Assembly: GCF_009914755.1 (NCBI RefSeq) | Contig: NC_060936.1 | Source of the DNA: the human T2T-CHM13v2.0 reference genome, Homo sapiens | Length of the DNA: 64,000 bases | Reading direction: 5' to 3' (one strand) | Part shown: in pieces, positions 36,601 through 60,780 of the stretch | How positions within the stretch are numbered: position 1 is the first letter of the stretch | Layout: each line of letters starts with the position of its first letter | Program-made: the position numbers and the translations under genes | The notes under the pieces: generated by a model | Database searches by the model: none | What the model saw: the letters and a program-made list of their open reading frames with translations, nothing else | Told to the model about the DNA's origin: nothing

Positions 36601-39015
36601 CGCAGATGTCTGCTGCAGAGCTGGGCTGAGAGTTCTGCAGTCTAGCTCTGACTTAGGTCAGGGGCCTGTTGGTCTCTCATTGGACGTTTTTGGGTCTCAC
36701 TCATGCTTACTGAAACATTGTGCCAAGAAACTCTGTGGGATTTGTGTCCCTTAAACCAGACTCACTTTTCTGAAAAATCTCCATTGTTGAGGAGAGGCTG
36801 CTCAATCGACACCCCGAGTTCTCATGACTGGGAAGATAGTTTTCTTCAGGTGTCAATGGCGTTAGACTCCCAGGAAGACTAGCCCTGCCCACAGGGCCAC
36901 CTGTTGGTTTGAGAGCGTGTTCGTGTTCTCTTGCCCTCCCTGCCTAAGAGCTACTGGGATCACGTTAGCGGGCATTTAGGCTTTGATGAGAGGGCACAGT
37001 TTGAGTTAGGTTTACCTCCCCCTTTCTGTGCCTGGGAACTGTTTGGTCCAGCTTTAGAACTGTGGTTTTGACTTCCTTATCTCTTGGGAGAAGCTTCTGT
37101 TTTAAGGAATTTCTCTTCCTTCTTCTCCTGCCTCTAGCCTCTCCTGGAAAGGCCTGGATATGGTTTCTAAAATCTCAGCTGAGAACTTCAGAAAACAGCA
37201 GCAGTATTTTCCTTTTCCTAGTGCTAAAATCCCTTTCCCTAGAAATTGGCTCACCTTGGGAAACCCAGGGAAAGAATCAGCAGGTTCTCTGCCCTCCCTA
37301 GGGGTTGGGGAAGGACCCACCCCGGTCAGCACAGTGCCTTTTCCTCTCCTGCTCTGAGCCAGGGTGGGGCATTCCCTCTAGATTCAGGTTTGGGCAGGGG
37401 TCCTATAGTCCCTGCCATGGGGCTGCTTCCCTGTCCCTTCCCTCCCCTTTGCTGGCCTACTCTGGCATAATTCAAGTGTCTTCTTGCCTTGGGGATCCTT
37501 AGTGGCATCAAATGGCAACATGGAATATTGTCCTCCATGCCCCTCCAGAAGGACCTAGGAGAGTAGGTGAGCTTTCCAAAGTGAGAGACGAATCTTTCTT
37601 TCTTTTTTTTTTTAAAGGGCAGGATGGGTATGCTTTGGGCTTTCTCCTTCTGTGGCCCCGGAGGAAGGAGAGACTGAGGCAAGGCAAAGTGATAGTACAC
37701 TGAAGCAGAACCGGAAACACCCAGGAACTGTTCAGAAATCTCAGAAGAAATCTGCTTCTCTTCGATGGAAAGATATAATTAACGATCAAAGAGCTCTAAG
37801 AAAATTGCAAAGAAGCCTTAATGTTCAAGCTTTAGAAAGATCAGAGCAATTTTTCTCTTTCAGTCCAAACTAAGACTCTCTGTATTTAAATCTCTCTGGG
37901 GCAAGAGGGCTAGATTTCCTCATTTTGTTATGAGACTAGATTGGTACCAGTAGATCAGCTGCCTAGCGAGGGCAGGTTTCTTCTTTGCATCTGTGTGGCT
38001 TGCTTCCAGTCTGGCCTGTCCTTTCCAGCTGCCTTTTGTCTAGCCTGCTATGGGGGGCCAGATTATCTTGATAAGAGCAGGTGATTTGGGGACTAGCTGG
38101 GTTGGCAGGAAAAGAGCAGGATGGATCTCTTGGGACAGGTTCCCCCAGGAGTATAAACACAAGGAGCCAGGATTGTGCTGGCAGCCAAGGAAACAGTAGT
38201 GCCTGTTTGAGTTGGCAGAGAGGGCCTTGGCACCTCTTGCATCCAGGCAGTCTTGTGAGATGGGGGCACATAGCACTGGGGAAAGCAGAACTCCATTCTC
38301 ACCTCTATTTTGAGCTTCAGTGCTTTATTTCAGTATGAGGAAAAACAACAACAAACTGAAGTGCGCTTTCCGTCCTTTCAAAGGACAACTGTCGGGAAGG
38401 GAGAGCCGAGTTGCGAGGTAGGAGGGGAGCACTGGCAGGGAGAGACATTCTTGACTCCTCTCTTCCCTGGTGTGTTGTGATCCAGGGAATGAAAAGAAAT
38501 TTGACCCTGGATTGGTTCTCTCCTTGGACTTAAGGAATCTTACCTTTTCCTTCCACAAAGTTCTCCCAGGCAAGGACCAGCTGCCCATTCTGAGCCCAGG
38601 GCAGCCTCTTCAACCATTATTGGTCTAACCTGGCTTGTCAGGAAACCAAGCCCACCCTTCCACATTGGGCCTGGCTGCTCTATTCTGTACCAAGTACTGG
38701 AGAAAAAGCATCAAGTTCTTAGCCCTTGTAGCTTCTACCCTAGTTTCCCATCCTCTCTCTGTGGAGGCCAAACCAACTCTTTGCCAGCAGCCACAACATG
38801 CATTGACAGCGGCACAGTGAGATATAACTGATGGGCTTTGAACCTGGTTGGCCGGGGAAGCTGTAGGGGTGGATAGAGCTGGCTTTCCTTCTGGGCTGTC
38901 TCCATCTGACCCTACCCCTTCCATGTCCCACCCCACTCCCACCAAAAAGTACAAAATCAGGATGTTTTTCACTGTCCATTGCTTTGTGTTTTAATAAACA
39001 ATTTGCAGTGACACT
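33700..39015 (+). other. MLEC: MLEC long 3' UTR
   Basis: Unique, Alu-free sequence up to AATAAA at 38993-38998, followed by a GT-rich element. End approximate. Confidence 0.8.
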
Positions 39016-39519
39016 CTGTGTTGGGACTGAGTTCGAACTTGATCTCAAAGCGCTGAAGTGATGGGGTGGGAAAAAGGAGACCCAGGGGTTCACTTGGCTC
39101 CAAAGAGTTCTCCTGTGACGAGGCTGGGAACTGTTGTCCATTTAGCTGTGTGTCTTTTGCTTTTCTTCTCTCTGGGATGTTTGCTTAGGGGAATCATTCT
39201 GTAAAACCCTTCCTGGTCATTTCAACTAGCAGCGCATTTAAGGACAAAAAATTTGTTTTCACTTTCACTGGAACAACTAGGCACAGACTGTCCCACTCTT
39301 AAGGCACACTGGGCCTATTGCTGCCTCTCCTCACCATTCCCTTAGCCTCTGTGATAGCCCACGGACAAGCTAAGCTAACCTAAGCCATAGGAGATTTTTC
39401 TCTGCTTGCTCCTTCTCTGGTGTTTTGTCATTGTTGATTACACATTAGGAAGAGCAGAATGCAGGAGGGATTTTTTTTCCTATAATTTATAAGCCACGTT
39501 TTACAGGTGAGGATCGTTG

Positions 39520-45290
<5,771 letters not shown>

Positions 45291-46692
45291 AAATATGACT
45301 CTGTGCCTTGCTTTTTGCCCTACTTAATATATGTTTGAGATCTTTCCATACTAATATATATGTCTCATTTTTTAAAACAGCTCTATGTAACGTGAATGGA
45401 TACAAATGTAATTTATTGTAATTTGTCAATATTACAAATCTCTGTGCATGCAGGTAGGGTAAATTCCTAGATGTGGAATTGCAGGTGAAGAGGTTACATT
45501 TGCCATCATCCCTAGAAAGAGAAAAGCCATGGTCCAGGTAACTAGTCTTGGTGCTATGAGAACAAACCTTCCGTAAATAAGTATATGGGAAATGACCACA
45601 TGCTAAACCACCCTCTTGGCCATTCACAATCAAGTAGCATATTAAAAGTTCTGGAAATTCTTCAGTAACCACTCTGTTGAGTGGTTTAAAAAGAGTTGTT
45701 TGTAAAAGGAAAGACTTTAATTCTTTGTACACATTTATTAAAATCTCCCTGAACAGTTAGTTAAATGCCACCATATACTAATCTCTCAAAGACAGTACAG
45801 CATTTGGGTAGGAATTTGGCCACACACTATGCCACCCAATTGGGCAGCTGGGGTGGGGTCAGGTTTGGACTTTGTCCAGGAACCAAGAGATGCCTGTCTT
45901 GGTGGCTTTGGTGAGAGGGACTCAGCAAGCAAGGCCTGGCAAGAACGTCAAGAGGCTCTGGGGGACGGTTGCAATTTTACTCTAGCCTGGCTGAGAGGTG
46001 ATGTCAGACCTAGCAGACACACTGCATCAATCAGGCCCAGGCCTCCAACACAGAACAGTGCAGATCTAGAATCCCTAGAGAAGGAGCCCCTCAGGGTGGA
46101 AGACGGTAGACCACATCCCCCTGTTGACCCACTTCTGGCTAATTGGTGAGGTCATGGCTAACTTCCAAAGCTCAGTGCAGATATTGCCTCTGAAAACTTC
46201 CGAAGCCCTCAAGCTTTTACAGCCAGGTCAGAATAAACCACTCCTGTGTGTTCTCCTAGCACCTTTGCTGCATCTCTTAGTGCAGTCAGTGAATCTAGTT
46301 TGTCTTCCAGTTCATACTAACCTACCTTGTGAAAAGGAAGGGTCACATAATGAATTGTGTACTTTACAGTCTTCTCTAACAAAAGTGGGAGCTCTTCCAT
46401 AGTGGGATACTGTTCAGGCTCTCATTCAATCATTACTGAGCACCTACCACGTGTCAGGCATTAGCTGAACTGCTGGGAATTCAGGGGTGAGGCAGACCCA
46501 ATCCCTGCCCTCACTCTTACATCTCCTGTAGCCTAGCCCAATGTCTAGCCCAGGGCCTGGCACAGTAGGGCTTACGGATGGCAATCTCATTGGAAAGTTT
46601 GTCTTGAAACTGCCTTTGCAAAACAAACACTGCTTTAACTTACCTTCTATGCTAAATATATTAATAAACATTTTCTCAAGATGCATTGTCCA

Positions 46693-47069
46693 CTAATAGC
46701 TTAGTGTTGAAGAACAGGCCTTGGGTCAGATGGACCTGGATTAAAATCCCTGTTCCCTCCTCTTACTGCTTGAGGGACTTTGGACATGTTACCTGACTTC
46801 TCTGAACTTGAGCTTCCTGATCTGTAAAATGGAGACAGTAATACCTCACAGGGTTGTTGTGAGGTGAGGAGCCTGCCCTATAGCAAGTGTCCTGCCATAT
46901 AGCAAGTGCGCAGTAAACACTGGCCATTCTTCTTCTTGGTGTGATTACTGGGAATTAGTTGCCATTGTGCTGTTGGGACTGGTGACAGAACTCTTGGATT
47001 GAGAATGCCGAGATGGTGCACGGAAGATTCTGTGTGCTCTTTCAGACCAGGAGGAGGATGAGGAGGAGG
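46693..47069 (+). repeat. Local duplicate of UNC119B intron 2 end plus first 24 nt of exon 3 (source 53419-53789; includes a MIR relic)
   Basis: Hand alignment: ~20 substitutions and two indels (5 and 1 bp) over ~371 bp. Confidence 0.95.
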
Positions 47070-47240
47070 AAAGTTTATATGACGTAAATTCATTTGACCG
47101 TAAGATATGTATTTAAACATCGTGGAGGATCTTGGGGGTCTGATGGGGAGTGGGGTTGCTGAAGCTCCAGCCACCCCTAGGCCCTCCACCTGGCAGGACC
47201 AAAGTTGGGGCAGTAGCCGAAGCACCGCCCCCCGGGCCCC

Positions 47241-47497
47241 GCAGGAGTGTGCAGTCACCCAGTTAGGCCTATCTTGGCCTGCCCATCACTCCTGGCCTGC
47301 GGTCTCCTAACCCTGTGGCAGCAGCAGCATTCCCTGAATGGATCGAAGGCTGCCATGGTGTCGTCCGCTGAATTGCTATAGGAGTCAGCCCAGGGCTGCT
47401 CATGTGCACCTCAGGTTGCTGATGGCAGCTCTAGTTATTTGGGGATGGAAGTTTGGGGAGAGTGGGCCTTGGTCCACCCTGTGCGAAAGGGAATTCC
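47241..47497 (+). repeat. Local duplicate of UNC119B intron 1 segment (48734-48987)
   Basis: Hand alignment: ~17 substitutions and one 3-bp indel over ~254 bp. The ORF track shows paired peptides at 47338 and 48831. Confidence 0.95.
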
Positions 47498-47499
47498 AC

Positions 47500-48400
47500 A
47501 GCCCCCCGGGCGCCCGCCCCCGCCCCCGCCCCGCCCCCTCCCCGCCCCTTCCCCGCCGGGCCCCGGGCCCCGCCCCCGCTCTCCATAGTTACCGCGCTGT
47601 GGAGGCGGCGGCCATCTTGGCGGCGGAGCGATGAGCGGGTCTAACCCGAAGGCTGCGGCCGCGGCGTCGGCGGCTGGGCCCGGGGGGCTGGTGGCTGGCA
47701 AGGAGGAGAAGAAGAAGGCGGGCGGCGGCGTCCTGAACCGCCTGAAGGCGCGGCGGCAGGCGCCCCACCACGCGGCCGACGACGGCGTCGGGGCAGCGGT
47801 CACGGAGCAGGAGCTGCTGGCGCTGGACACCATCCGGCCCGAGCACGTCCTGCGCCTCAGCCGGGTCACCGAGAGTGAGTGCCGCGCGGGCCGCGCCCTC
47901 CCCTCGCGCCGTGCCCCGGCTCCCGGAGCCTTCAGCGGACCCGGCCACTTGACCAGCGCGGGGGTCCCCGCCAGACCCCCTCGGCCGGCCGGGCCGCGCT
48001 TCCCGCTGCCCCGCCGGCCGGGCTTTGCTCCCGCCACGCTCACGTAGCTCTGGTGGGGAAGGACTCTCCTGGGCTGGACCGCATTCCTGTGAGTCCGGCC
48101 ATGCCCTTCGGCCGGTCGGCTCCCCAGCTCTGCCGGACCTGTTTGGGTAGAGGGCCCCGTTCAGCTGAACTGGATCCTCCTGAGCCGGCCGGGGGCCGAG
48201 GTCCCCTAATAAATGGGCCCCTGGGCCCTCAGCCTGGAACCCCCGGCCATCAGTGAAGTTCCCGCTCAGCCAGGCTCCCCCAGCCCTCTGGCAGGCCAGA
48301 AGCCTTACCTGCTTCCTCCGCCCTGGCCCCATGGCAGCCCTCCCCCATTGCAGCCTGCCCGGCCTCCCTCCCTCTTTGGGTCGGGAGCGTTGCCCCTTAG
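47500..48400 (+). promoter_or_regulatory. UNC119B: UNC119B CpG-island promoter
   Basis: Tandem GC boxes (ccccgccc) at 47513-47578; YY1-type gccatcttgg at 47611-47620; CpG-rich through exon 1. Confidence 0.85.
47631..47874 (+). CDS. UNC119B: Unc-119 lipid-binding chaperone B, exon 1
   Basis: MSGSNPKAAAAASAAGPGG...VTEQELLALDTIRPEHVLRLSRVTE; donor A|gtgagt; 244 nt. Confidence 0.97.
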
Positions 48401-49679
48401 TGTGCAGAGGGGTTCTTCCTCAAAACACATAGCCGTGGCATTTCCTGCTCATTTAAAACTGTGCCACATTAAAACAAAAATAAAGTTTCAGTTTGTGTAC
48501 AGACTCCGACATGTGAATCCTGCTTTTGACATTCTCGTGAATTAAGAATGATTTCAGAGTTTCAGAAATGCGTTTCCTGCACAAAAGGCAACCATCCTAA
48601 GCTTTTTCGTTGATAGGAGGATGGGTGGGAAGAAAAATGTTGCCCAGTCCCTGCCCTGGGTGATCTCCCTTTTTCTGTTCTCTGCCAAGCCAGTCCCTGA
48701 CTTGACGTCTTTTCTCTTGCTGCTGTTTTCCCTGCAGGAGTGTGCACTCACCTAGTTAGGCCTATCTTGGCCTGCCCATCACTCCTGGCGTGCAGTCTCC
48801 TAACCCTGTGGCAGCAGCAGCATTCCCTGGATGGATCGAAGGCTGCCATGGTGTCTGCTGAGCTGCTATAGCAGGCAGCCCAGGGCTGTTCAGGTGCACC
48901 TCAGGTTGCCGATTGCAGCTCTAGTAATTTGGGGATGGAAGTTTGGGGGGAGTAGGCCTTGGTCCACCCTGTGCGAAAGGGAATTCCCATTTCCTAAAAG
49001 AGTTTTAATTTGATTCTAGATATTTGGATGCCCCCGTTTCCCAATACTGTTTGGGTTGAGACTGTCCTTACCAGACCTGAGCGTATCTTTAGACATTCTT
49101 GTTAGTTTTATTGAAACAGTGTGAAAAAGCTTCTTTTCTTCTGAACCAGTTTTCATTTGGGGCTCTGAAAGTACAGATGCTCAGCACCTGGTCTTGGTAA
49201 CCTCATGCCCTCTCCTGCCATCCAAGTGAGTTAGGGTATTCTGTGCCTGGCCCTAAGCAGGATTCTCAGTGGGCACTCAGATCCTATCTGGGGGCTTGGG
49301 ATTGTTGCTCATTGTCCAAACCCACCTCTGCAGCTTCTTAGAGTCTGGCAACCTCTTTGTTACTCTTCTTAACGTCTCGTTCATTCTATCCAGCAGATTA
49401 TTTGAGTACCCTCTAAGAGTCCAAAGCCAATGTTAGCCTTTTTAGCAGTTACAGAATAATCAGTAGTTGTCAAGTTTGTCGTCTTAATAAAGAGACAACT
49501 TGTAAAACACGAAAACAACTAACTCAGGCAATAAAAGATCAAGTATCAAAATGAGCTGTGGAGAAGATGCTATCCGGAATCATCCTAGAAAGAAATCAGT
49601 GAAATTTGCTGTGATTAGAATTATTTCAATTTGCGGCTCATGTTCTAGTCACTTGGGCCTAATGTCTTCACCGGCAGAT

Positions 49680-50000
49680 TTATCCTCTTGCCTGGATATG
49701 TATGATATGTATTGTCTACTGTATGATTTTGTGTAGCCCACAAACTAAGATTAGGTTTGTACATTTTTAAATGGTTGAAAAAAACTTTAAAATCTTGAGA
49801 CACGTGGTTATGTAAAATTCATATTTCAGTGTCCATAAATACAGTTTTACTGGAATATAGCCACATTCATTCATTTGCGTATTGTCTGTGGATGCTTTTG
49901 TGGCTACAATGATAGAGTTGAGTAGTTGTGACAGAGACCATGTGGCGGCAAAGCCTAAATTATTTAGAATCTGGCTCTACAGAAAAGTTTGCTGATCTCG
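49680..50000. mobile_element. MER58B-like hAT relic
   Basis: 'ttttactggaatatagccacattcattcatttgcgtattgtctgtgg...gagttgagtagttgtgacagagacc...agaaaagtttgctga'. Confidence 0.75.
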
Positions 50001-50414
50001 GCTTTCTTACACTGACAGTTGGCAAACTAACGTTGGCAAACTAGCACTGTATTATCTGCTAAGTCAGTTTAAATGTCTTAGATTGGAATTCTATAAAAAG
50101 TTCGCCCTGTTCTGACATCCAACTTGATAGATGATGAAAGATTTTTATGTGTTTCCAAAGAAATCCACCTTTTCTATCCTAGTTTCTAAAAGTTTTGCAA
50201 TTTTTCATCCAAAGCAAGTCCTTGTTATTTTTTTTCTTTGTTGGATCCCCTAATTCTGTCCATACAACTTCTGCTGGTGATAACACATGAGAAAGTTTTT
50301 GGGAGTATTTTAAGTGTGTTGTGTAAGAAAAAATCTGAGTTTGCTTCAAAACTTGAGAATTAAATAAATGGTAGTTTTGGAGGATTATTTAACAGTGTTG
50401 GTTTCTCTTTTCAG

Positions 50415-50528
50415 ATTATTTATGTAAACCCGAAGACAACATCTACAGTATTGATTTCACCCGCTTCAAAATTCGAGATTTGGAGACAGGGACAGTACTT
50501 TTTGAGATTGCCAAACCTTGCGTTTCAG
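50415..50528 (+). CDS. UNC119B: UNC119B exon 2
   Basis: tttcag|; [38 protein letters not shown]; |gtaggc; 114 nt; UNC119/PDE-delta family motif. Confidence 0.96.
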
Positions 50529-51216
50529 GTAGGCCTCTACGTTGTGGTGACCACTAGACAGTTTTGAGCCAAAGGTCTTTGAAACTCAAATCTTTGTGTG
50601 CCACTGCATCCTGTTTCTTGGACTCCAGTGTGTCCCACTTCTGTGACCTCTTCCCGTGGCCTGGTCTGCCAGGCATGGTGGTTTGAAGCTGCGTTCAGAG
50701 GCTGATGTTTGTTGGATGTCTATTCTGTGCTGGTCACTGTGTTCCACGTCTTTGTGCACATCAGTGTATGTAATCCTCACACCTCTTTGAGGAATTACTG
50801 TTATCTCTGTTTTACAGCGAAGGATCTGAGGCCTACAATTCCCAGGCGGCTCTTTCCTAAGGCCCTGTGCTGGTTCATCTTACCATGTTGCCTCCAGTTG
50901 GGAAAGGAATCCTTGAAATTAAACTATAATGAGGAAAACTCACCTGAGCCTGGTGCCCTCTTGGAGGGTGATAGGGAGGATCCTGGTCCAGACATGAGGC
51001 AGTTTGAGCCATCTTCTTGCTCTCTTTTACATATTGCCTTGGAGTTCCCAGACCTAGTTTGGATTTTAATCTCAACCATTTTCTGGAAGAACAGACCCAG
51101 GAACTCAACTACTTGGGGTTCCTTAAATTAGCCTCCCATAGCCGCTTCCTGTGCTTGTGATAAAGTGCCAGGCTGATCTGGACCACAGAAGCCTTTGGAG
51201 CACCTCACTGGAGGTT

Positions 51217-51232
51217 TAGCGCCCCCTGGAGT
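51217..51232 (-). promoter_or_regulatory. CTCF-like core motif
   Basis: Reverse strand reads ACTCCAGGGGGCGCTA versus consensus CCACCAGGGGGCGCTA. Motif only; no binding data. Confidence 0.35.
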
Positions 51233-51344
51233 TAGTCATTTGTTAGAACACTGGTACAGATACCCATAGTATCAGTGTGGTTTGTAAACTTACTTTGCAG
51301 TGTTTCTCATCTGATTTGCTACTTAGAGCCTGCAAATTTGATAA

Positions 51345-51593
<249 letters not shown>

Positions 51594-52626
51594 TGAGATT
51601 ACAGGTGCCCACCACCATGCCTAGCTAATTTTTGTATTTTTAATAGAGACGGGATTTCACCATGTTGGTCAGGCTGGTGTCAGACGCCTGACCTTTGATT
51701 CGCCTGCCTTGGTCTCCCAAAGTGCTGGGATTACAAGCGTGAGCCACCGCGCCTGGTTGCTTATGGGTAGTTTTTTATTGGGATGGTCAGATCAAGACCA
51801 GCTAGCTTCCTGGGTCTGTGGTGTTCTCATCTCTAAGCCACATATCACAGTACCTGGGACATTGCAAGGACTCCAGGCCTACTACAGGTATGTGGATTTG
51901 GATTAGACTCAGAGTTGTCATTTCAATATAAGACGGAACTGTTTCAAGAAGGTCAGCTGAAGATACTGTAAAGTATCTTGGTTTTCAGTCTCTCTAGTTT
52001 TTATATTTAAGGATCTTGATTCACTTGTAATATTCCCCACATTGAGGCTGGGTGCGGTGGATCACACCTGTAATTCTAGCACTTCGGGAGGCTGAGGCAG
52101 GCAGATCACTTGAGCCCCAGGAGTTTGAGACCAGCCTGGGCAACATGGCAAAACCCCATCTGTACAAAAAATACAAAAAAATTAGCCAGGCGTGGTGGCA
52201 CATGCCTGTGGTCCCAGCTACTCAGGAGGCTGAGGTGGAAGGATGGCTTGAGCCTGGGAGATCAAGGCTGCAGTGAGCCGTGATCACTGCATTGCACTCC
52301 AGCGAAGGTGACAGAGTGAGACCCTATCTCAAAATAAATCAATAAATATAAACAACAGATTATCCTCACACTGAATCACTACCTTTCTGCAGCACTTGTT
52401 CTGATGAATTTGAATCCCCAAGATTTGCTGTCTCTCTGAGTCACATTGTTGGAGCCAGGGTTTTAGAGTCTCTGGGGGTGAACCCCTACTCAGCCTGGTT
52501 GCCCAGTCGCTCTTGGGCTTGTCAAAAGCAGAGATGTTTGATGCTGAAAAAGTCTTCTCTTATGTTGTACTCATGTACAGCTTAGACCTGGAGAAAATAT
52601 CCTCACTGGACACTGGAGGGTACTAA

Positions 52627-53091
<465 letters not shown>

Positions 53092-53765
53092 TAGGCCTGG
53101 TATGGCCTAGAAGTAAACATCAGTCAAGGAACTATAGTATCCCAAGGCTGTAGGTCAATGTCTTCTATTTAAATAACAAAATTATTTTTAGTGGTTTATC
53201 TTTGCAGCCTGTCAGAAATTTTTATATTCATTGAAATAACTTTCTGATAAGTGTCAACTTTTGTAGCCTCATTCTTTTAGGTTGGTGCTAGCGCTTCAAC
53301 TTGGTTAACTGCAGACCTAGTCTGAATAGAATAGGCCATGTCAGAGGCCCAGTTCCCAGCTTGTGTTTCAGGTTTCACCCTTAGGATATGGCATAAGCTC
53401 TCAAACTATTAAAAAAGGCTAATAGCTTAGTGTTGAAGAACAGGCCTTGAGTCAGATGGACCTGGATTCAAATCCCTGTTCCCTCCTCTTACTGTTTGAG
53501 GGACTTTGGACATGTTACCTGACTTCTCTGAACTTGAGCTTCCTGATCTGTAAAACAGAGACAGTAACACCTCGAAGGGTTGTTGTAAGGAGTCTGGACT
53601 ATGGCAAGTGTCCTGCTATATAGCAAGTGCGCAGTAAACACTGGCCATTCTTCTTGTTGGTGTGGTTACTGGGATTGGTTGCCATTGTGCTGTTGGGACT
53701 GGTGATAGAACTCTTGGATTGAGAATGTCGAGATGGTGCACTGAAGATTCTGTGTGCTCTTTCAG

Positions 53766-53877
53766 ACCAGGAGGAGGATGAGGAGGAGGGAGGTGGAGAC
53801 GTGGACATCAGCGCAGGACGTTTTGTCCGCTATCAGTTCACACCGGCATTTCTCCGCCTCCGGACAGTCGGGGCTAC
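53766..53877 (+). CDS. UNC119B: UNC119B exon 3
   Basis: tttcag|; [38 protein letters not shown]; |gtgagt; 112 nt. Confidence 0.96.
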
Positions 53878-54007
53878 GTGAGTACCATTACTACCTGAGG
53901 GGAGAACATTCTGTTTGTTCACAGAGAAGAGTGTTTTCGGTTGGGTTTTGGGTTGGCTTTAGAGGAGGGAGGAGGCAAAGTCGGGCTTACAGAGATTTAT
54001 TTTCCAG

Positions 54008-54180
54008 GGTGGAGTTCACAGTGGGAGACAAACCTGTTTCAAACTTCCGGATGATCGAACGGCACTATTTCCGGGAACACTTGCTGAAAAACTTTGACTT
54101 TGATTTTGGCTTCTGCATCCCCAGCAGTAGGAACACTTGTGAACATATCTATGAGTTTCCCCAGCTTTCGGAGGATGTCA
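54008..54180 (+). CDS. UNC119B: UNC119B exon 4
   Basis: ttccag|; [57 protein letters not shown]; |gtatgt; 173 nt. Confidence 0.97.
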
Positions 54181-54423
54181 GTATGTATCCCCTGACCCTT
54201 ACAGCACTCTAGATTCTGAGGGCTACAAGGAACAAACCTTGAAACCCATCTGGTCCAGCGCCCTGGCATTGTCTCGTGGCAGTGCTGACATGATGCGTAT
54301 CTAGTCATTTGACCTCAGGCTTCTCATTTCCTATTGCTCCTGGCTCCTGTTCTAAACTCTGACTCGGCCCGTATGGGAGCAATGAAGGGTTTGTTTGTTT
54401 TTGTTTTTGTTTTTTTCCCCTGA

Positions 54424-54531
<108 letters not shown>

Positions 54532-56273
54532 TGAGTAGCTGGGATTACACCACACTTGGCTAGTTTTTGTATTTTCAGTAGAGACGGGATTTCACCATGT
54601 TGGTCAGGCTGGTCTCGAACACTTGACCTCATGATCCACTCTCCTCGGCCTCCCACAATGCTGGGATTACAGGTGTGAGCCACTGCCCCCGGCCCTTTTG
54701 TTTTTTTCTTTTTTTTTTGAGACGGAGTCTTGCCCTATTGCCCAGGCTGGAGTGCAGTGGCGCAGTCTTGGCTCAGTGCATCCTCCGTCTCCTGGGTTCA
54801 AGTGATTCTCCTGCCTCAGCCTCTCGAGTAGCTGGGATTATAGGCGCCTGCCACCATGCCCGGCTAATTTTTTGTATTTTTTGTAGAGACAGAGTTTCAC
54901 CATGTTGGTCAGGCTGGTCTCGAACTCCTGACCCTGTGATCCACCTGCCTCATCCTTCCAAAGTACTGGGGATTACAGGCGTGAGCCACTGTGCTCAGTC
55001 TGAAGGTTTTTTTTTTTTTTCTTTTTGAGACGGAGTCTTGATCTTGTCACCCAGGCTGGAGTGCAGTGGCGCAATCTCGGCTCACTGCAAGCTCTGCCTC
55101 CTGGGTTCATGCCATTCTGCCTCAGCCTCCTGAGTAGCTGAGACTACAGGTGCCCACCACCATGCCCGGCTAATTTTTTGTATTTTTAGTAGAGACGGGG
55201 TTTCACCGTGTTAGCCAGGATAGTCCCAATCTCCTGACCTCGTGATCCGCCTGCTTCGGCCTCCCAAAGTGCTGGAATTACAGGCTTGAGCCACTGCGCC
55301 CGGCCGGTCTGAAGGTTTTAATAATACAGGCCATCCTTTTAGATGCCTCCTGTGGGAAGACAGTGCCTAAGGGAGTTAAAAGGAGGCCTGTGACCATCCC
55401 TGGGACGCTGATCAGATAAAGCACCTCTCCTGTGCACTGTTAGTCATGGTTTTCCATTGTGTTTTAGTCATTGGCCCTTCACTTTTTTCTTAATCAGAGC
55501 TAGATGTGAAACTGCAGGCTAAATAGAATCAAGGCCAGAGGACTTCTTTTCCATTCCCTGCAGGATAGAGAGTTGATTGGATAAAGTGTTGAGATAGATC
55601 CAGCAGGAAGGAATGGGGCTGTTGCAGATTTTGGGGCAGGAGTGAGAAGGTGGAAATACTGTTTGAGGAAGAGTGGCCTAGACCTGGGGAGGGCACCAGA
55701 GGGAGAAGGCTGCTGCCGTGTAGCCTCGGCAAGGGAAGATGGGGACCAAACGAGAGAGAAAGAACAGCCCTTGTCAGTTTCTGCAACTTTGGCCTAGCCA
55801 CCTCAGGTTCGCATCCTTTGTGAATAGTTAAGGAAAATTCAAGTCATTTATGAGGGTGTGAATAGAATCCTGTGACTAGTGATGCCTGTAGTTGCCTTGC
55901 TGGCATCACTGATTGGTCCTCTCAGAATCCCAGGTCCTTAAGAATTGTCATATTCTGAAAACCAGATAACCTTTAATCGTGTGGCAGTACAGTTCCCAGG
56001 TAAAATGAGGATTGCTGAGATGTGGGGCAGGGTGTTGACGACAGCATCTGGTTCTGACTTGAACCCCTCTTCCCAAGCTGGCTAGAATATGTAGATACTT
56101 GCAAGAAAAGATGATGTATAGTGTTATAAGTTTTACCCATGAAGCCAAATCAGCCTGGAGGGCAATATTATGCATATAAACCGAGTAGTTTTGGCATTGG
56201 TGGGTTCAAAGAACTTTAAAAAATCAGTTTCACTTTTTGAGAACTGTGGTGAGCAACAGCATTTCCTCCAGGG

Positions 56274-56433
56274 GACTCCAAATGGCATGTAATCATTAAC
56301 TCAAAACTGATCAGAGGTAGTATTATCTTTATTCTCCAGTATGGTTAAAGACTCAAAATGGCATGTAATCATTAACTCAAAACTGATCAGAGGTAGTGAC
56401 TGTTAATTATCTTTACTCTCCAGTATGGTTAAA
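56274..56433 (+). repeat. Two-copy tandem duplication (76 bp + 84 bp)
   Basis: gactc.aaatggcatgtaatcattaactcaaaactgatcagaggtagt...attatcttta.tctccagtatggttaaa occurs twice; copy 2 has an extra gactgtta. Confidence 0.95.
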
Positions 56434-57057
56434 GAGGTCTGGGCAATTGCCTGAACAAACAAGACTTTACTTTAGATCCCAAGACAGGCAGACCTATTGC
56501 TGAATCATTTGCGAGTTAATACCCAGAAGGTCTCCGGAGAAGGCTCCCTGCCCTGTGTTCCTTGCACTCATTCCAATCTAGGTTTCCTTGGGTTGTCAGG
56601 GTTGTGTGTGGAGGTGGGCACAGTGAGGCTCAGATTTCTGAATTTGGAGTGGAATGTCTAGAGGTGGGCCACTGACCAGAGGCCAGGGCTGGCTTTGGTC
56701 AGCTGAGAGCACTGAGTAAATAGGTTGGTGGGGTCCATGTTGGGAAGAGGGGTGAGCACATTTCCCTGGTATCTTGGCTGAAGAATCCAGGCTGGAGATG
56801 ACAGAGGAGGCCATGGTGGAGAGTTGATTGCATCCTTATGTTGAAATGGAGATCATGTTCAGCTGGGGGAACTCTGTGGTCTCCCCAGCTGTCAAGGGCT
56901 GCCTCCCTCTGTTCTGACCTCATCGTTATTCTGGCAGAGTATACTCTGAAGCGCTGGCTTATTTTGGAGGGGATGCAAAGTTTTCTCCCACCTACCCTGT
57001 GGGGCAGACTCAAACATAATTCTTTGCTTTTTTCTTCCCCCTTTGCCTGACTTGCAG

Positions 57058-57170
57058 TTCGTCTAATGATTGAAAATCCTTACGAGACCCGCTCTGACAG
57101 CTTCTACTTTGTTGACAACAAGCTGATAATGCACAACAAGGCTGATTATGCCTATAATGGAGGCCAGTAA
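57058..57170 (+). CDS. UNC119B: UNC119B exon 5 CDS
   Basis: ttgcag|; [37 protein letters not shown]. Exon total 244+114+112+173+113=756 nt = 251 aa. Confidence 0.96.
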
Positions 57171-60100
57171 GTGCTGCAAGAGTAGGTAGGGGAGGTGCTT
57201 TGCCGCGGCCACAAGATCCTGGCACACGGAGATGATCGAAGCTGCAGTTTGTCAACACACATCTGGAACCTGGCCCCAGGAAGCCAAGGCTGGGGTGGCA
57301 GTTTCCTGCGCGCCAAAGGAGCTGCCAAACAGTGCTGTGTTTTCTTCCCCAGTATTTTTTCTTCCCTTTTTTTCCTGCCCCGTAGGTTGCAGAGGTACTA
57401 TAGTAAAGTAAAAGGTTAGGATAAGGGTCCTGGAATCCAGATAAAAAAGTTTATTTTCCGTAGTTCTGGCTGCCTGTTGGTTGTCTTGACGACCAGGCAT
57501 AGCTGTGCCTGGTGAGAAGGCTCTGGCCAGGCCCACCAGCAGGTCAGCAGCTCTTAAGGTTCCTGGGTGCTGTGGGAAGCTGAAAGGTAGGCCTCTTCCA
57601 GGTAGCTCCTCCTCTCACCTCCGGCATTGCCATCAGCGCAGTCTGCCCTCGGTCTGTGTGAAGTCTTAAACCAACTGGAAGACACTTGAAAGGGTGGGGA
57701 GGGAGGGAGGTGCCAAGAGTGGAGGCACCAAGGAATGGGTGATGCTGCCAAGCTGAAGGGTCTGCTTTGTGGAGAGGCTGCTGCTCTGTCTGACTTCCAG
57801 GGTCTCAGCCAGCCCTCCTGGGAATAGACCAAGTTTTCAGCCTGGCAGTGCCTTCTGTTCCCATTTTGGAGGACAGACAAGCTTGCTCCACATCTCCTGG
57901 CTCCTCCCTTCTGAGTCTCATGAAATAGAATGAGTCAGCTCTGCTCATGGAACAGTAGTATCTCTTGAGGCCAGAGCAGGTCTTGTATTTTGTTTTTTTA
58001 TTTCCAGACTTCTTTCGGGGAGGTTTTATAAAATGACAGTGGTGTTCCCAGCATATGTGATATGTGGTTAGACTTCTGATAGTATCAGCTTCCAGGGGCT
58101 AATCTGGCTTATGTTGGGAGGATATGCTTACGAATCAGCAGCAGCTTTCTAAAGGAGAGATTTGACTTTTCTCTGCACTGCACAGCCTGGAGGATTGGCT
58201 TTTGATGGGGATTTGCCTCCGAAGCTCTTTGTACATTTCTTGTTTAGGAGGGTTTTCCTATCTACCTTTCTACTGAAGTAGTTTCTGGAACTTTCCTGGT
58301 GGATCAGAGTTACGTAATGCAGTCTGAGCCTTCAGACTGCTAGTTAGAATTGTTTTAGGTGTTCAGAAAGGGCAAAATAGGCTGATGTGGCCTGTCAGAG
58401 TGATGTGTTCTCAAAAAAGTTCACTTGCACATCTGTGGGCTGCTTTTGTCCTCAGACCCTTAGTGGACAGACTCCACAAACCCTCTGATGAGACGATTGA
58501 TGTGGCCAGGGTCCAGTTAGCATCAGTAGAAGGATGTCACTAGGAAAGGCCCAGGTATCTGGTAAGTGACTGTGAGGTGTCACAGTACCTGTGACAGGAG
58601 AGTGTCCTGATGTGCTTGGGAGAAAGGCCGTATGGGGGCCAGGGATGGAAGAGACAGTGTGTGGCCACAGAAATTCCTGTCCATCCACCACCAGTGCTGC
58701 TCCCTGTGTGGGCTCTAGGGCGAGTGGCCCCGAACCTTGGCCCAGTGCTTTGTCCCAGGCCAGAGTCTTGGCAATGCCACATGCTGGCAGCTTTCTCACT
58801 GAGAAGGTCCTAGCTTACCCCTGTGTGCTGGCCTTGGATTCAGCCCCGAGAGAGGGGAGAGACCATTCCTCCTGTGGAGTGGGTTCCTTATCACCAGACC
58901 GGCCACTCTCAGAACTGGCGTCCACTGTAAATCCAGGTGCCTTACGTGTGGCTCTGTCCCTTATGCTGCAGGGGAAAGCTGCATTGCCATTGTTCCCACC
59001 TCCTCACTGGCAGAAAGATGCCAGGGCTGTTAGCACTGTCTCCTCACCTTCTGTTTCTCATTGTGGCTCCTCAAATGGGATTTGCATGTTCCTGTCAAGC
59101 GTAACAACAATCCCTTCTCTCTTTGACAGAGGCCCAGGTGGGACAGTTTCTACTATTTGATATTTGAGTATTATCTGGGATGTGGTTCTGGAGCTGCCCA
59201 GAGCTGTGCTTAGTAGAGTGTGTCTTGGAAACATGCCCCTGGGCACACTGTATCTGCTACATTAGTGGGCTATCTCTTATCTGCAGTGTTCGCTTTTGCT
59301 AGAAAGAGGATGTGGAGGAAGGAGGAGGTGGGCAATCTGGCTTGAGTTGTGCTGTATCCTCTTCCTTGTTAGCTTGCCTTAGTCTCACTGGAGACCATTT
59401 GCGGATAGTGCTTGGTCCATGCCCAGCAGGACAGGGCTTTGCTGCTTCTGAAAGTCTGGTGTTCTGTATCTGGGGCTGTGGGTTCCTGTGTCTAGCTGCT
59501 CAGGAAATCTTGAGAAGCATTCCACTCTGGGGTGTAAACCAGTATGAGTTTGAAATTCAAGCGTTTGTACCTGAGTTGGGGAGAGAATTGCAAGGCATAC
59601 TTTCTCTGAAAGTAACAGAACCATTCAGGCTGCCATGTTATTAAGGAATCTGAACTGTTGATAGCAGTTACCTTGTGGGTGATACAATGGGAGGCGGCAA
59701 AAAAACTACCTGCATAGGAGACCCTGCCCTTTGTCAAGAGCTGGGAGCACATTTCATCAGAGTAGCAGGCCCACCTGGTGCCAGAGGGCCTGCCCCTCCT
59801 GCTTCTGTTCCTTTGCCTTGCAGTCTCCTGGAGAGAGCCTCTCTTTTCCTGTACAGCCTTTGGGCCAAAATGCCCTTCTAGCTTCTCCAAAGAAGATCCG
59901 AGTTTATTTCATTCTATGTTTTAAGAGGTAAAAGGACATAACAAGTGAAGGAAGTTTTGGGCTAAAGTAGGCTATGTCTCCTTATGTATTACTCAATACT
60001 GTTTTGCAGAGAAAACATTTTTCAAGCATGTGCTTCCTGAAGACACCTCAGTCTTTGGGCCATTTGATTTCCAATACATAGGGTGGAAGAATGTGATTTT

Positions 60101-60780
60101 GGGGCTGACCATAAACTGGAAATTTGTGAAATGGCAGTGATTGGGCAATCTTCAGTTTATTTTTTCAGTTGAAGTGGAACTCATTTCTGGAATGGATTTA
60201 ATAGGCTGTGTCTAATGTACAAACTGGGTGAGTCCTGCCTTAGTGTGTCCTGCCCCACCGGTACGCTTCCAGGATACTCTTTTCCCCTCTGTAAAGTCAC
60301 TTTCTTCTGATGGCCAGTGTCACTATGATGTCAGTGAGGTCTGGGGATGAGGACAGTGTGTCCTGAAATTCACAGGACTGACTCCTCACCCCAGTGCACG
60401 AGGATTCCTGTGGCATCAGGTGCTGCTGTACCTGGTGTAGGAGCCTAATCATTGAACCATTGTGTTACTCACATTCCATGTCACAGAACATATCAGCCTC
60501 AAGAAGGATTTGGTGGAGGTGGATTTACCACTGGTTTTACAAAGGACCGTGTAAAGTCATTGAAGTTGTGAAAGTCTATTTTTTTTCCTGTAAATCTATT
60601 TTTTACAGAATATAAGAAACATCAATGACCTGATCTGTCCTTCCTCCTCCTTCCCGCTTCCCCCAAAATCACATTCCAGTTTTTATTGTCTTTGTGTCCA
60701 AAGTAAACTAGGTGACTTATTTGTATAAAATGTTATTTTGCCACATGAGACAGTAATAAAAGAAAGATTTTCACAGTACG
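57171..60780 (+). other. UNC119B: UNC119B 3' UTR
   Basis: Unique sequence up to AATAAA at 60755-60760. End approximate. Confidence 0.8.
60331..60404 (+). ncRNA. MIR4700: microRNA 4700 precursor hairpin
   Basis: Arm ctggggatgaggacagt can pair with actgactcctcaccccag. The sequence matches my recollection of hsa-mir-4700 (5p TCTGGGGATGAGGACAGTGTGT at 60340-60361). Confidence 0.8.

What the first reader, a model, noticed from the sequence alone, without database searches (positions are those of the whole stretch)
46693..47511. UNC119B upstream region contains two copies of its own downstream sequence, in reversed order
Seen: within ~950 bp upstream of the ATG are two same-strand copies of internal UNC119B sequence. 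Copy A (46693-47069) matches 53419-53789 at ~94-95%; copy B (47241-47497) matches 48734-48987 at ~93%. They lie A then B, whereas the sources lie B then A, so they are not the eroded remnant of one simple tandem duplication. Neither has a poly-A tail. Inference: templated insertions at a promoter break, by replicative template switching (FoSTeS/MMBIR), polymerase-theta-type templated insertion, or copying from the gene's own nascent pre-mRNA. Similar divergence suggests one episode in the primate lineage. About 630 bp of the upstream region would then be lineage-specific, self-derived sequence.
Basis: partly seen in the sequence, partly recalled or inferred. Interest (0 to 1): 0.8.

Follow-up and report, generated by a model that had tools for sequence, protein, structure and literature searches.

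The report
Gene's own introns copied upstream
Two short pieces of the human UNC119B gene's own interior were copied and pasted just in front of its promoter, most likely in one old DNA-repair or replication accident; it is real, but an example of a known kind of mutation.

Summary
Copy A' (46693-47069) matches 53419-53789 at 351 of 371 aligned bases. Copy B' (47241-47497) matches 48734-48987 at 237 of 254. Both lie on the same strand, in swapped order.

A search of the whole human assembly finds each segment at exactly two places. The only other hits to A' are 71-92% matches to an ancient repeat core inside it. The 171-bp spacer is single-copy. So this is not a dispersed repeat.

All four breakpoints are sharp, with no residual homology beyond them. 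This argues against an eroded tandem duplication or an old pair kept alike by gene conversion.

The direction of copying is settled. A' carries the intron-2 splice acceptor plus the first 24 nt of coding exon 3. B' is bracketed by a 15-bp direct repeat (14 of 15) that looks like a target-site duplication.

There is no poly(A) tail and no L1 target site, and junction microhomology is 0-4 nt.

The best reading is one complex templated insertion from nearby DNA in cis (MMBIR/FoSTeS-like). RNA-templated repair and capture of small DNA fragments are not excluded.

The date, around the ape/Old World monkey split, rests only on 5.9% divergence; no orthologues could be examined. Moderate interest; new member of a known kind.

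The parts
46693..47069 (+). Copy A' (377 bp, -921 to -545 from the TSS): derived copy of the last 347 nt of intron 2 plus the first 24 nt of exon 3. It contains an ancient MIR-like repeat core at A' positions about 34-172.
47046..47069 (+). Exon-3-derived 24 nt inside A' (24 of 24 identical to 53766-53789, codons for QEEDEEE), preceded by the intact copied polypyrimidine tract and AG acceptor (AG at 47044-47045).
47070..47240 (+). Spacer of 171 bp. It is single-copy in the genome and has no template in the gene body, so it is inferred to be original upstream DNA. Its 3' end holds the left copy of the direct repeat.
47223..47237 (+). Left copy of the candidate target-site duplication (CACCGCCCCCCGGGC).
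47241..47497 (+). Copy B' (257 bp, or 261 from 47237 by blastn; -373 to -117 from the TSS): derived copy of an intron-1 segment, inserted at the 5' edge of the CpG island.
47497..47511 (+). Right copy of the candidate target-site duplication (CACAGCCCCCCGGGC), starting on the last base of B'.
47498..47613 (+). CpG-island core promoter (GC 86%, CpG o/e 0.87) up to the annotated TSS at 47614. It is not part of either copy.
   Evidence: annotation given with the finding
48734..48987 (+). Source B, in intron 1, 1493 bp downstream of B'. No direct repeat flanks it.
53419..53789 (+). Source A: intron-2 3' end (53419-53765) plus exon-3 start (53766-53789), 6726 bp downstream of A'. No direct repeat flanks it.

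Best explanation
Two segments of UNC119B's own gene body were copied, without loss of the originals, into two sites 171 bp apart just upstream of the gene's CpG-island promoter. A is the intron-2/exon-3 junction, 6.7 kb downstream. B is an intron-1 segment, 1.5 kb downstream. Both went in the same orientation as the gene.

Shown here:
- The upstream copies are the derived ones.
- Each segment is two-copy in the genome.
- The breakpoints are sharp.
- B' carries a likely 15-bp target-site duplication.
- Neither copy has retrotransposition hallmarks.

Inferred: both arose in one complex germline event by DNA-templated template switching in cis (FoSTeS/MMBIR-like). In this model a nascent strand leaves the upstream region, copies 377 nt at A and returns. 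It then copies 171 nt of original sequence, leaves again, copies about 257 nt at B, and returns about 15 nt behind its point of departure, which creates the flanking duplication.

From about 5.9% divergence and a recalled neutral clock, the event dates to roughly the ape/Old World monkey ancestor. As a result about 630 of the 921 bp upstream of the human TSS are self-derived intronic sequence. No function is shown.

My odds: derived insertions from the gene body about 0.9; a single event about 0.65; a DNA-templated replicative mechanism about 0.45-0.5. The confidence given for this field is for the full statement, mechanism included.
For: Copy number:
- A' has 2 full-length places in the 3.1-Gb assembly. 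The other 38 of the 40 scored hits (48 candidates) cover only query 34-172 at 71-92%.
- B' has 2 of 2 places. The spacer has 1.
- The left flank has itself plus one 84-bp hit at 76%.

Sharp edges: flank-versus-flank local alignment scores are no better than dinucleotide shuffles at all 4 breakpoints (151, 125, 185 and 179 of 200 shuffles reach or exceed the observed score).

Direction of copying:
- A' includes the splice acceptor and 24 nt of a coding exon in an intact 251-aa CDS.
- B' is bracketed by a 15-bp repeat, 14 of 15 identical. Its 11-mer core occurs on the + strand only at these 2 places in 64 kb.
- Controls for the repeat: 0 of 98 GC-rich same-geometry pairs and 26 of 2000 shuffles reach its score. 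Among 755 windows with GC of at least 0.8, only the 9 overlapping the true site reach it, and only 3 of those abut the junction.
- The source flanks have no such repeat.

A cis process and one episode:
- Both templates lie within 7 kb and in the same orientation.
- The insertion sites are 171 bp apart.
- The two divergences are indistinguishable.
- Nothing else in 39014-47613 derives from the gene. Of 66 HSPs, the two copies are the only ones above 90%.

Independent divergence of the two A copies: at 6 of the 7 sites polarised by 20 other genomic copies of the repeat core, the intronic source carries the derived base; at 1 site, covered by only 3 outgroup sequences, A' does.

Against: - Microhomology, the hallmark of MMBIR, is weak: 0 nt at both A' junctions, 1-4 nt at the left B' junction and 1 nt at the right. 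In PMC8421209, 138 of 155 and 135 of 148 germline junctions had at least 1 bp. About 6% later divergence could have erased some.
- The templated insertions detected in that paper and in its yeast model are mostly short and copied from very near the insertion. Here they are 257-377 bp, from 1.5-6.7 kb away.
- Both templates lie inside the transcription unit in sense orientation. An RNA template would explain this more naturally than a DNA template.
- The target-site duplication lies in a low-complexity GC-rich promoter. An 11-nt exact match to the same left flank occurs 64 bp further in, at 47561-47571, so a chance repeat is not fully excluded.
- The single-event claim and the date are untested, because no orthologous or population sequence was available.
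- The outgroup copies were found with A' as the query, which biases them slightly toward A' states.
Confidence: 0.5

Rival explanations
1. RNA-templated repair. Breaks in the promoter-proximal region of the transcribed gene were patched with reverse-transcribed pieces of its own unspliced nascent pre-mRNA. This is like class 2 templated sequence insertions, but in cis.
For: - Both templates lie inside the transcription unit (47614-60778) and both copies are in sense orientation (annotation).
- A' spans an unspliced intron/exon junction.
- The sizes of 377 and 257 bp fall within the 73-414 bp range of experimental TSIs. TSIs are enriched for transcribed sequence and reduced by reverse-transcriptase inhibitors (PMC5110952, parts 1-2 read).
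- The A' junctions are blunt, with no target-site duplication and no poly(A), as in class 2.
- Use of nascent RNA in double-strand break repair is reported (PMC5059474 and PMC11390984; listing and start of abstract only).
Against: - Nothing RNA-specific is present: no splicing, no poly(A), and no excess of A-to-G changes (3 copy-G/source-A versus 4 the other way in A).
- B' has a 15-bp flanking duplication, which class 2 events lack. Class 1 events need a poly(A) tail and a TTTT/A site, and both are absent.
- An unspliced junction is expected equally from a DNA template.
Confidence: 0.2
2. Capture of small free DNA fragments. Pieces of the gene body 200-400 bp long (microDNA-like circles or replication/repair by-products) were ligated by end joining into two breaks that released or flanked a nucleosome-sized 171-bp piece of the upstream region.
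For: - The insert sizes of 257 and 377 bp match the 200-400 bp size class of microDNA. microDNA arises preferentially from genes, exons, 5' UTRs and CpG islands, with nucleosome periodicity (PMC6511871, passages read).
- Three of the four junctions have 0-1 nt of microhomology.
- The spacer is 171 bp.
Against: - No reintegration of microDNA appears in the passages read ('integrat' has 0 occurrences in PMC6511871).
- Random capture does not explain why both fragments come from the same gene and lie in the same orientation.
- The flanking duplication needs an additional 15-nt staggered break with fill-in.
Confidence: 0.12
3. Two independent insertion events at different times, at a site that is recurrently prone to breaks.
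For: - B' has its own flanking duplication and A' has none, so the junction types differ.
- The point estimates of divergence differ (0.054 vs 0.067).
Against: - The difference is well within error (about 0.7 SE).
- Two rare events from the same gene, in the same orientation and 171 bp apart, would be a large coincidence.
Confidence: 0.1
4. An ancient duplication, present in most mammals, kept 93-95% alike by gene conversion.
For: Differences between A and A' are clustered (11 in 70 bp; 33 of 5000 permutations reach this), so the ends are more alike than the middle.
Against: - The boundaries are sharp with no decayed homology outside them.
- Both copies carry private derived changes.
- B shows no clustering (1213 of 5000).
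- The flanking duplication around B' is still 14 of 15 identical.
Confidence: 0.03
5. A dispersed repeat family, or an assembly artefact.
For: A' contains an ancient MIR-like core with many genomic relatives.
Against: - Those relatives are 71-92% identical and cover only A' positions 34-172. No third full-length copy of A' or B' exists in the assembly. The tool states that its counts are lower bounds.
- Copies that differ at 37 of 625 aligned sites cannot be a collapse or duplication error of assembly.
Confidence: 0.01

Closest known systems
MMBIR/FoSTeS templated insertions and complex multi-template rearrangements (e.g. MMB-TIs of Osia et al. 2021, PMC8421209)
   Same: Copy-without-loss of nearby sequence; several templates used in one locus; return to the original template; a short duplication of target sequence at the return point; germline events can become fixed.
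   Different: Microhomology is weak (0, 0, 1-4 and 1 nt). The inserts are longer (257-377 bp) and the templates further away (1.5-6.7 kb) than the short, very local insertions detected there. There is no associated copy-number change beyond the inserts.
Class 2 templated sequence insertions / TSIPs (Onozawa and Aplan, PMC5110952)
   Same: Patches of unique, transcribed, partly intronic sequence a few hundred bp long; donor intact; no poly(A); blunt or microhomology junctions (A').
   Different: Those donors are at distant loci, often on other chromosomes. Here both donors lie in the same gene, within 7 kb, and in sense orientation. B' has a 15-bp flanking duplication, which class 2 lacks. An RNA origin is untested here.
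Class 1 TSIPs / L1 ORF2p-mediated retrocopies
   Same: B' has a flanking duplication of typical length (15 bp).
   Different: No poly(A) tail, no polyadenylation signal at the 3' end, and no TTTT/A target (the target is a GC-rich CpG-island edge). A' has no flanking duplication. Introns are retained.
microDNA / small eccDNA (200-400 bp)
   Same: The size class and a genic, GC-moderate origin.
   Different: No evidence of a circular intermediate or of reintegration; the orientation and same-gene origin are not explained.
Short-range template switches in great-ape genomes (PMC7954356; listing and start of abstract only)
   Same: Evolutionary fixation of template-switch products.
   Different: From recall, those are much smaller, local and typically inverted; here both copies are direct and hundreds of bp long.

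Membership tests
Dispersed repeat family (SINE/LINE/DNA transposon) | Many genomic copies covering the whole segment at similar identity | tested here: not met
   A': 2 full-length places. The other 38 of 40 scored hits cover only positions 34-172 at 71-92%. B': 2 of 2 places.
Tandem or segmental duplication remnant | Collinear order and residual homology extending beyond the high-identity blocks | tested here: not met
   The order is swapped (A' then B', versus B then A). Flank alignments are no better than shuffles at all 4 breakpoints. There are no other gene-derived blocks in 39014-47613.
Class 1 TSIP / L1-mediated retrocopy | Target-site duplication of at least 5 bp | tested here: inconclusive
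   B': 15 bp, 14 of 15 identical. A': none; the best is 5 bp and does not abut the junctions.
Class 1 TSIP / L1-mediated retrocopy | Poly(A) tail downstream of a polyadenylation signal | tested here: not met
   A' is followed by AAAG and then unique sequence; B' is followed directly by the repeat copy.
Class 1 TSIP / L1-mediated retrocopy | Insertion at a 5'-TTTT/A-3' site | tested here: not met
   The B' target is the GC-rich 15-mer. The left flank of A' ends in TTGTCCA, which is not a TTTT/A site.
Class 2 TSI/TSIP (break patch) | No target-site duplication and no poly(A), with NHEJ-type junctions | tested here: inconclusive
   Met for A' (0 nt at both junctions, no duplication). Not met for B' because of its 15-bp flanking duplication.
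Class 2 TSI/TSIP (break patch) | Donor at a distant genomic region | tested here: not met
   The donors are 1493 and 6726 bp downstream in the same gene.
Class 2 TSI/TSIP (break patch) | Derived from RNA through reverse transcription | not testable with these tools
   No RNA-specific mark is present or expected in an unspliced fragment; an experiment is needed.
MMBIR/FoSTeS templated insertion | Microhomology at template-switch junctions | tested here: inconclusive
   0, 0, 1-4 and 1 nt at junctions J1-J4. About 6% later divergence may have changed junction bases.
MMBIR/FoSTeS templated insertion | [quoted passage not shown] | tested here: met
   Two templates within 7 kb; the pattern needs four switches; original sequence resumes after each insert.
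Processed retrocopy | Introns removed | tested here: not met
   A' is 353 nt of intron plus 24 nt of exon; B' is wholly intronic.
microDNA-derived insert | 200-400 bp unique genic fragment | tested here: met
   377 and 257 bp. The size class is as stated in PMC6511871.
microDNA-derived insert | Circular intermediate and reintegration | not testable with these tools
   No sequence signature would distinguish it.

The most novel reading that the evidence does not exclude
A fixed germline 'fossil' of RNA-templated break repair in cis. Two promoter-proximal breaks of an active gene were patched in one event with reverse-transcribed pieces of that gene's own unspliced nascent transcript. This would explain why both templates lie inside the transcription unit and both copies are in sense orientation. 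The insertion rebuilt about two thirds of the 0.9 kb upstream of the human UNC119B promoter.
Probability: 0.15. Interest if true: 0.7.

Novelty: new member of a known kind. Interest (0 to 1): 0.38.

Why it matters
About 630 of the 921 bp upstream of the human UNC119B start site are copies of the gene's own introns, and are probably absent from more distant mammals. This has four consequences.

- It affects how this promoter should be aligned across species, and how reads and reporter constructs are interpreted.
- It puts a spare, intact splice acceptor with 24 nt of exon upstream of the gene.
- It gives a clean natural example of a double insertion from the same gene. An ortholog-defined empty site could be used to weigh DNA-templated against RNA-templated repair in the germline.
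- It does not open a new category: small templated insertions and complex template-switch products are well described.

Tried and rejected
- Dispersed-repeat explanation: rejected by whole-assembly searches.
- Further templates for the spacer and left flank: none found in the genome or in the gene body (spacer score reached by 6 of 40 shuffles).
- Further patches upstream: 45200-46199 gave only a short high-copy repeat at query 9-98. Only 40 of 961 candidates were scored, so a weak patch could be missed. 39014-47613 versus the gene gave 66 HSPs, none above 86.4% apart from A and B.
- Target-site duplication around A', or around the whole A'-B' block: none (best 5 bp and 3 bp).
- Direct repeats around the intronic sources, which would have reversed the direction of copying: none.
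- Error-prone synthesis as the cause of the mutation cluster in A/A': not supported. The polarised cluster at A' positions 138-157 is derived in the intronic source, not in the copy.
- Literature on this locus: 'UNC119B'+'promoter'+'duplication' gave 4 papers and 'UNC119B'+'insertion'+'intron' gave 5. None is on this topic, judged by title and start of abstract, so I found nothing in print in those two searches.
- Orthologous or population sequences: no tool here holds other mammalian genomes, so the date, the empty allele and polymorphism could not be tested.

Full report
**1. The observation**

- A' (46693-47069) aligns with 53419-53789 over 377 columns. Of 371 aligned positions, 351 are identical, with 14 transitions, 6 transversions and 6 gap columns.
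- B' (47241-47497) aligns with 48734-48987 over 257 columns. Of 254 aligned positions, 237 are identical, with 10 transitions, 7 transversions and 3 gap columns.
- blastn gives 93.1% over 377 and 92.0% over 261, with B' extended 4 nt to the left.
- Both pairs are on the same strand. The upstream order is A' then B', while the sources lie B then A.
- In a self-megablast of the whole window these are the two most similar of 6 non-self pairs (at least 88%, at least 150 bp). The other four are 88-90% pairs of 216-313 bp, three of them involving 52659-52986; I take these to be Alu from recall, not from a tool.

**2. Not a repeat family**

The window's own 3.1-Gb assembly could be searched.
- A' has two full-length places, itself and the intron-2 source. 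The other 38 of 40 scored hits (48 candidates) cover only A' positions 34-172 at 71-92% identity. I recognise this core as MIR-like from recall.
- B' has exactly 2 places from 2 candidates.
- The 171-bp spacer has 1 place.
- The left flank 46200-46692 has itself plus one 84-bp hit at 76%.
- The tool warns that its counts are lower bounds, but a third copy at 90% or more would outrank everything listed.
- An assembly artefact cannot produce copies that differ at 37 of 625 aligned sites (sum of the two counts).

**3. Anatomy and direction of copying**

- A ends 24 nt inside exon 3. The copy contains the intron-2 polypyrimidine tract, the AG acceptor, and the first 24 exon bases at 24 of 24 identity.
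- The annotated CDS translates to an uninterrupted 251-aa protein, and those bases encode QEEDEEE. The gene copy is therefore the original and A' the derivative.
- B' is bracketed by a 15-nt direct repeat, 47223-47237 and 47497-47511, with 14 of 15 identical. The right copy begins on the last base of B'. The left copy ends 3 nt before B', or at its first base if the blastn boundary at 47237 is used.
- The 11-mer core of this repeat occurs on the + strand only at these two places in 64 kb, and once in reverse complement at 47678.
- Controls for the repeat:
  - 0 of 98 GC-rich pairs of the same geometry reach its score.
  - 26 of 2000 mononucleotide shuffles reach it.
  - Among 755 windows with GC of at least 0.8, only the 9 overlapping the true site reach it, and only 3 of those abut the junction.
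- A caution: the promoter is low in complexity, and an 11-nt exact match to the same left flank lies at 47561-47571. I rate the target-site duplication as probable, not certain.
- Neither source has a flanking repeat. Neither A' nor the whole A'-B' block has one (best 5 and 3 nt).
- The repeat implies that the 3' end of the spacer and the promoter were contiguous before B' arrived. The spacer is then original upstream DNA, and there were two insertion sites 171 bp apart.
- B' sits at the 5' edge of the CpG island. The promoter 47498-47613 has GC 86% and CpG o/e 0.87, while B' has GC 58% and o/e 0.24.

**4. Breakpoints**

- All four are sharp. Local alignment of 167-200 nt outside each breakpoint against the matching flank of the source scores no better than dinucleotide shuffles (151, 125, 185 and 179 of 200 shuffles reach or exceed the observed score).
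- This argues against an eroded larger duplication and against an old pair homogenised by gene conversion.
- Junction microhomology is 0 nt at both A' junctions. It is 1-4 nt at the left B' junction, depending on how a C/T difference at a CpG is read, and 1 nt at the right B' junction.
- There is no poly(A) and no TTTT/A target.

**5. Divergence and date**

- p = 0.054 +/- 0.012 for A and 0.067 +/- 0.016 for B (K2P 0.056 and 0.070). The difference is about 0.7 standard errors. Pooled, 37 of 625 sites differ, or 5.9%.
- 2 of the 20 A differences and 4 of the 17 B differences are in CpG context.
- Twenty other genomic copies of the repeat core served as an outgroup. They were found with A' as the query, which biases them slightly toward A'.
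- At A' positions 77, 138, 139, 150, 156 and 157, A' keeps the majority base and the intronic source is derived. At position 51, A' is derived, but only 3 outgroup sequences cover it.
- Both copies have therefore changed since the split, and most of the resolved changes fall on the source.
- From recalled genome-wide figures (human-macaque about 6-7%, human-orangutan about 3%, human-marmoset above 10%; not checked in any call), 5.9% puts the event near the ape/Old World monkey ancestor, with a wide interval.
- No orthologous genome is held by these tools, so the 'primate lineage' claim stays an inference.

**6. Mechanism**

Known classes were compared using definitions I read.
- Class 1 TSIPs need a target-site duplication, a poly(A) tail and a TTTT/A site. 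Class 2 have none of these, show end-joining junctions, and come from distant donors. Experimental inserts are 73-414 bp (PMC5110952, parts 1-2 of 4 read).
- A' looks like class 2 except that its donor is local. B' fits neither class, having a flanking duplication without poly(A) or an L1 site.
- MMBIR-type templated insertions use nearby templates, may use several, and can return to the original template. Most junctions carry microhomology: 138 of 155 and 135 of 148 germline junctions had at least 1 bp (PMC8421209, passages read).
- The present pattern fits a four-switch replicative event:
  - two nearby templates in cis;
  - original sequence resuming after each insert;
  - a short duplication where the strand returns.
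- The weak microhomology does not fit well.
- Both templates lie inside the transcription unit in sense orientation. This gives the nascent-RNA model some weight, although nothing RNA-specific is present.
- The insert sizes also match the 200-400 bp class of microDNA (PMC6511871, passages read).
- My ranking:
  - DNA-templated switching in one event, about 0.45-0.5;
  - RNA-templated repair, about 0.2;
  - capture of small DNA fragments, about 0.12;
  - gene conversion of an old pair, about 0.03;
  - repeat family or artefact, about 0.01.
- Whether there was one event or two is a partly separate question. I give two independent events about 0.1.

**7. Comparison and novelty**

- This is a new example of a known kind: small templated insertions and complex template-switch products.
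- Its particular features are that both pieces come from the gene whose promoter receives them, in sense orientation, 171 bp apart.
- Two searches for the locus found nothing on it, judged by title and start of abstract: 'UNC119B'+'promoter'+'duplication' gave 4 papers, and 'UNC119B'+'insertion'+'intron' gave 5.
- No function is shown. The RefSeq silencer elements listed with the finding (47504-47563 and 47654-47923) lie outside both copies.

**8. Verdict**

Self-derived insertion is supported; the mechanism, the single event and the date are still open.
- Interest is moderate (0.38).

Noticed in passing
window 47040-47101: A' keeps the copied polypyrimidine tract and AG acceptor (AG at 47044-47045). 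Downstream in the spacer there are donor-like GT sites at 47084 (GTAAAT) and 47100 (GTAAGA), which would give possible cryptic exons of 38 or 54 nt. No annotated transcript uses them, and the splice-site resemblance is judged by eye.
   Followed up: no
window 46871-46908 (A' positions 179-216) vs 53592-53629: Two adjacent similar 19-mers differ at 2 positions in A' but at 6 in the source. All 4 A'/A differences in the first unit make A' equal to its own second unit, which suggests one short conversion or slippage event rather than 4 substitutions. Counted as one event, the divergence of A would be about 17 of 371.
   Followed up: partly
window 53556-53575 (source A, intron 2): Five changes within 20 bp (A' positions 138, 139, 150, 156 and 157, including two adjacent pairs) are derived in the intronic source according to 17-19 of the 19-20 outgroup repeat copies covering each site. 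This is a local mutation cluster in the original, not in the copy. Overall, A/A' differences are clustered (11 in 70 bp; 33 of 5000 permutations reach this).
   Followed up: partly
window 46859-46863 and 47360-47362: Both larger indels between copies and sources look like small tandem duplications in the upstream copies: a 5-bp GTGAG repeat in A' and a 3-bp GTC repeat in B'. A further 1-bp indel lies near 46953.
   Followed up: no
window 47227-47240, 47501-47511, 47552-47571, 47678: The promoter region holds several near-identical C-run/GGGC motifs (scores 9-11 against the left flank of B'). They may be GC-box-like elements, and they complicate the reading of the flanking repeat.
   Followed up: partly
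window 47070-47240: The piece of original DNA left between the two inserts is 171 bp, about one nucleosome plus linker. Whether this reflects breaks in linker DNA on either side of one promoter nucleosome is speculation.
   Followed up: no
window 45208-45297: A short fragment (about 90 bp) of a very high-copy repeat, 76-94% identical to at least 44 places across the genome (961 first-look candidates, 40 scored). It is also similar to 55008-55089 on the opposite strand. Probably an Alu fragment (recalled, not tested).
   Followed up: no
window 46433-46513: The left flank of A' contains another old repeat-like stretch, with one 76% hit on contig 3. By eye it resembles a second MIR-type fragment separate from the one inside A'.
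   Followed up: no
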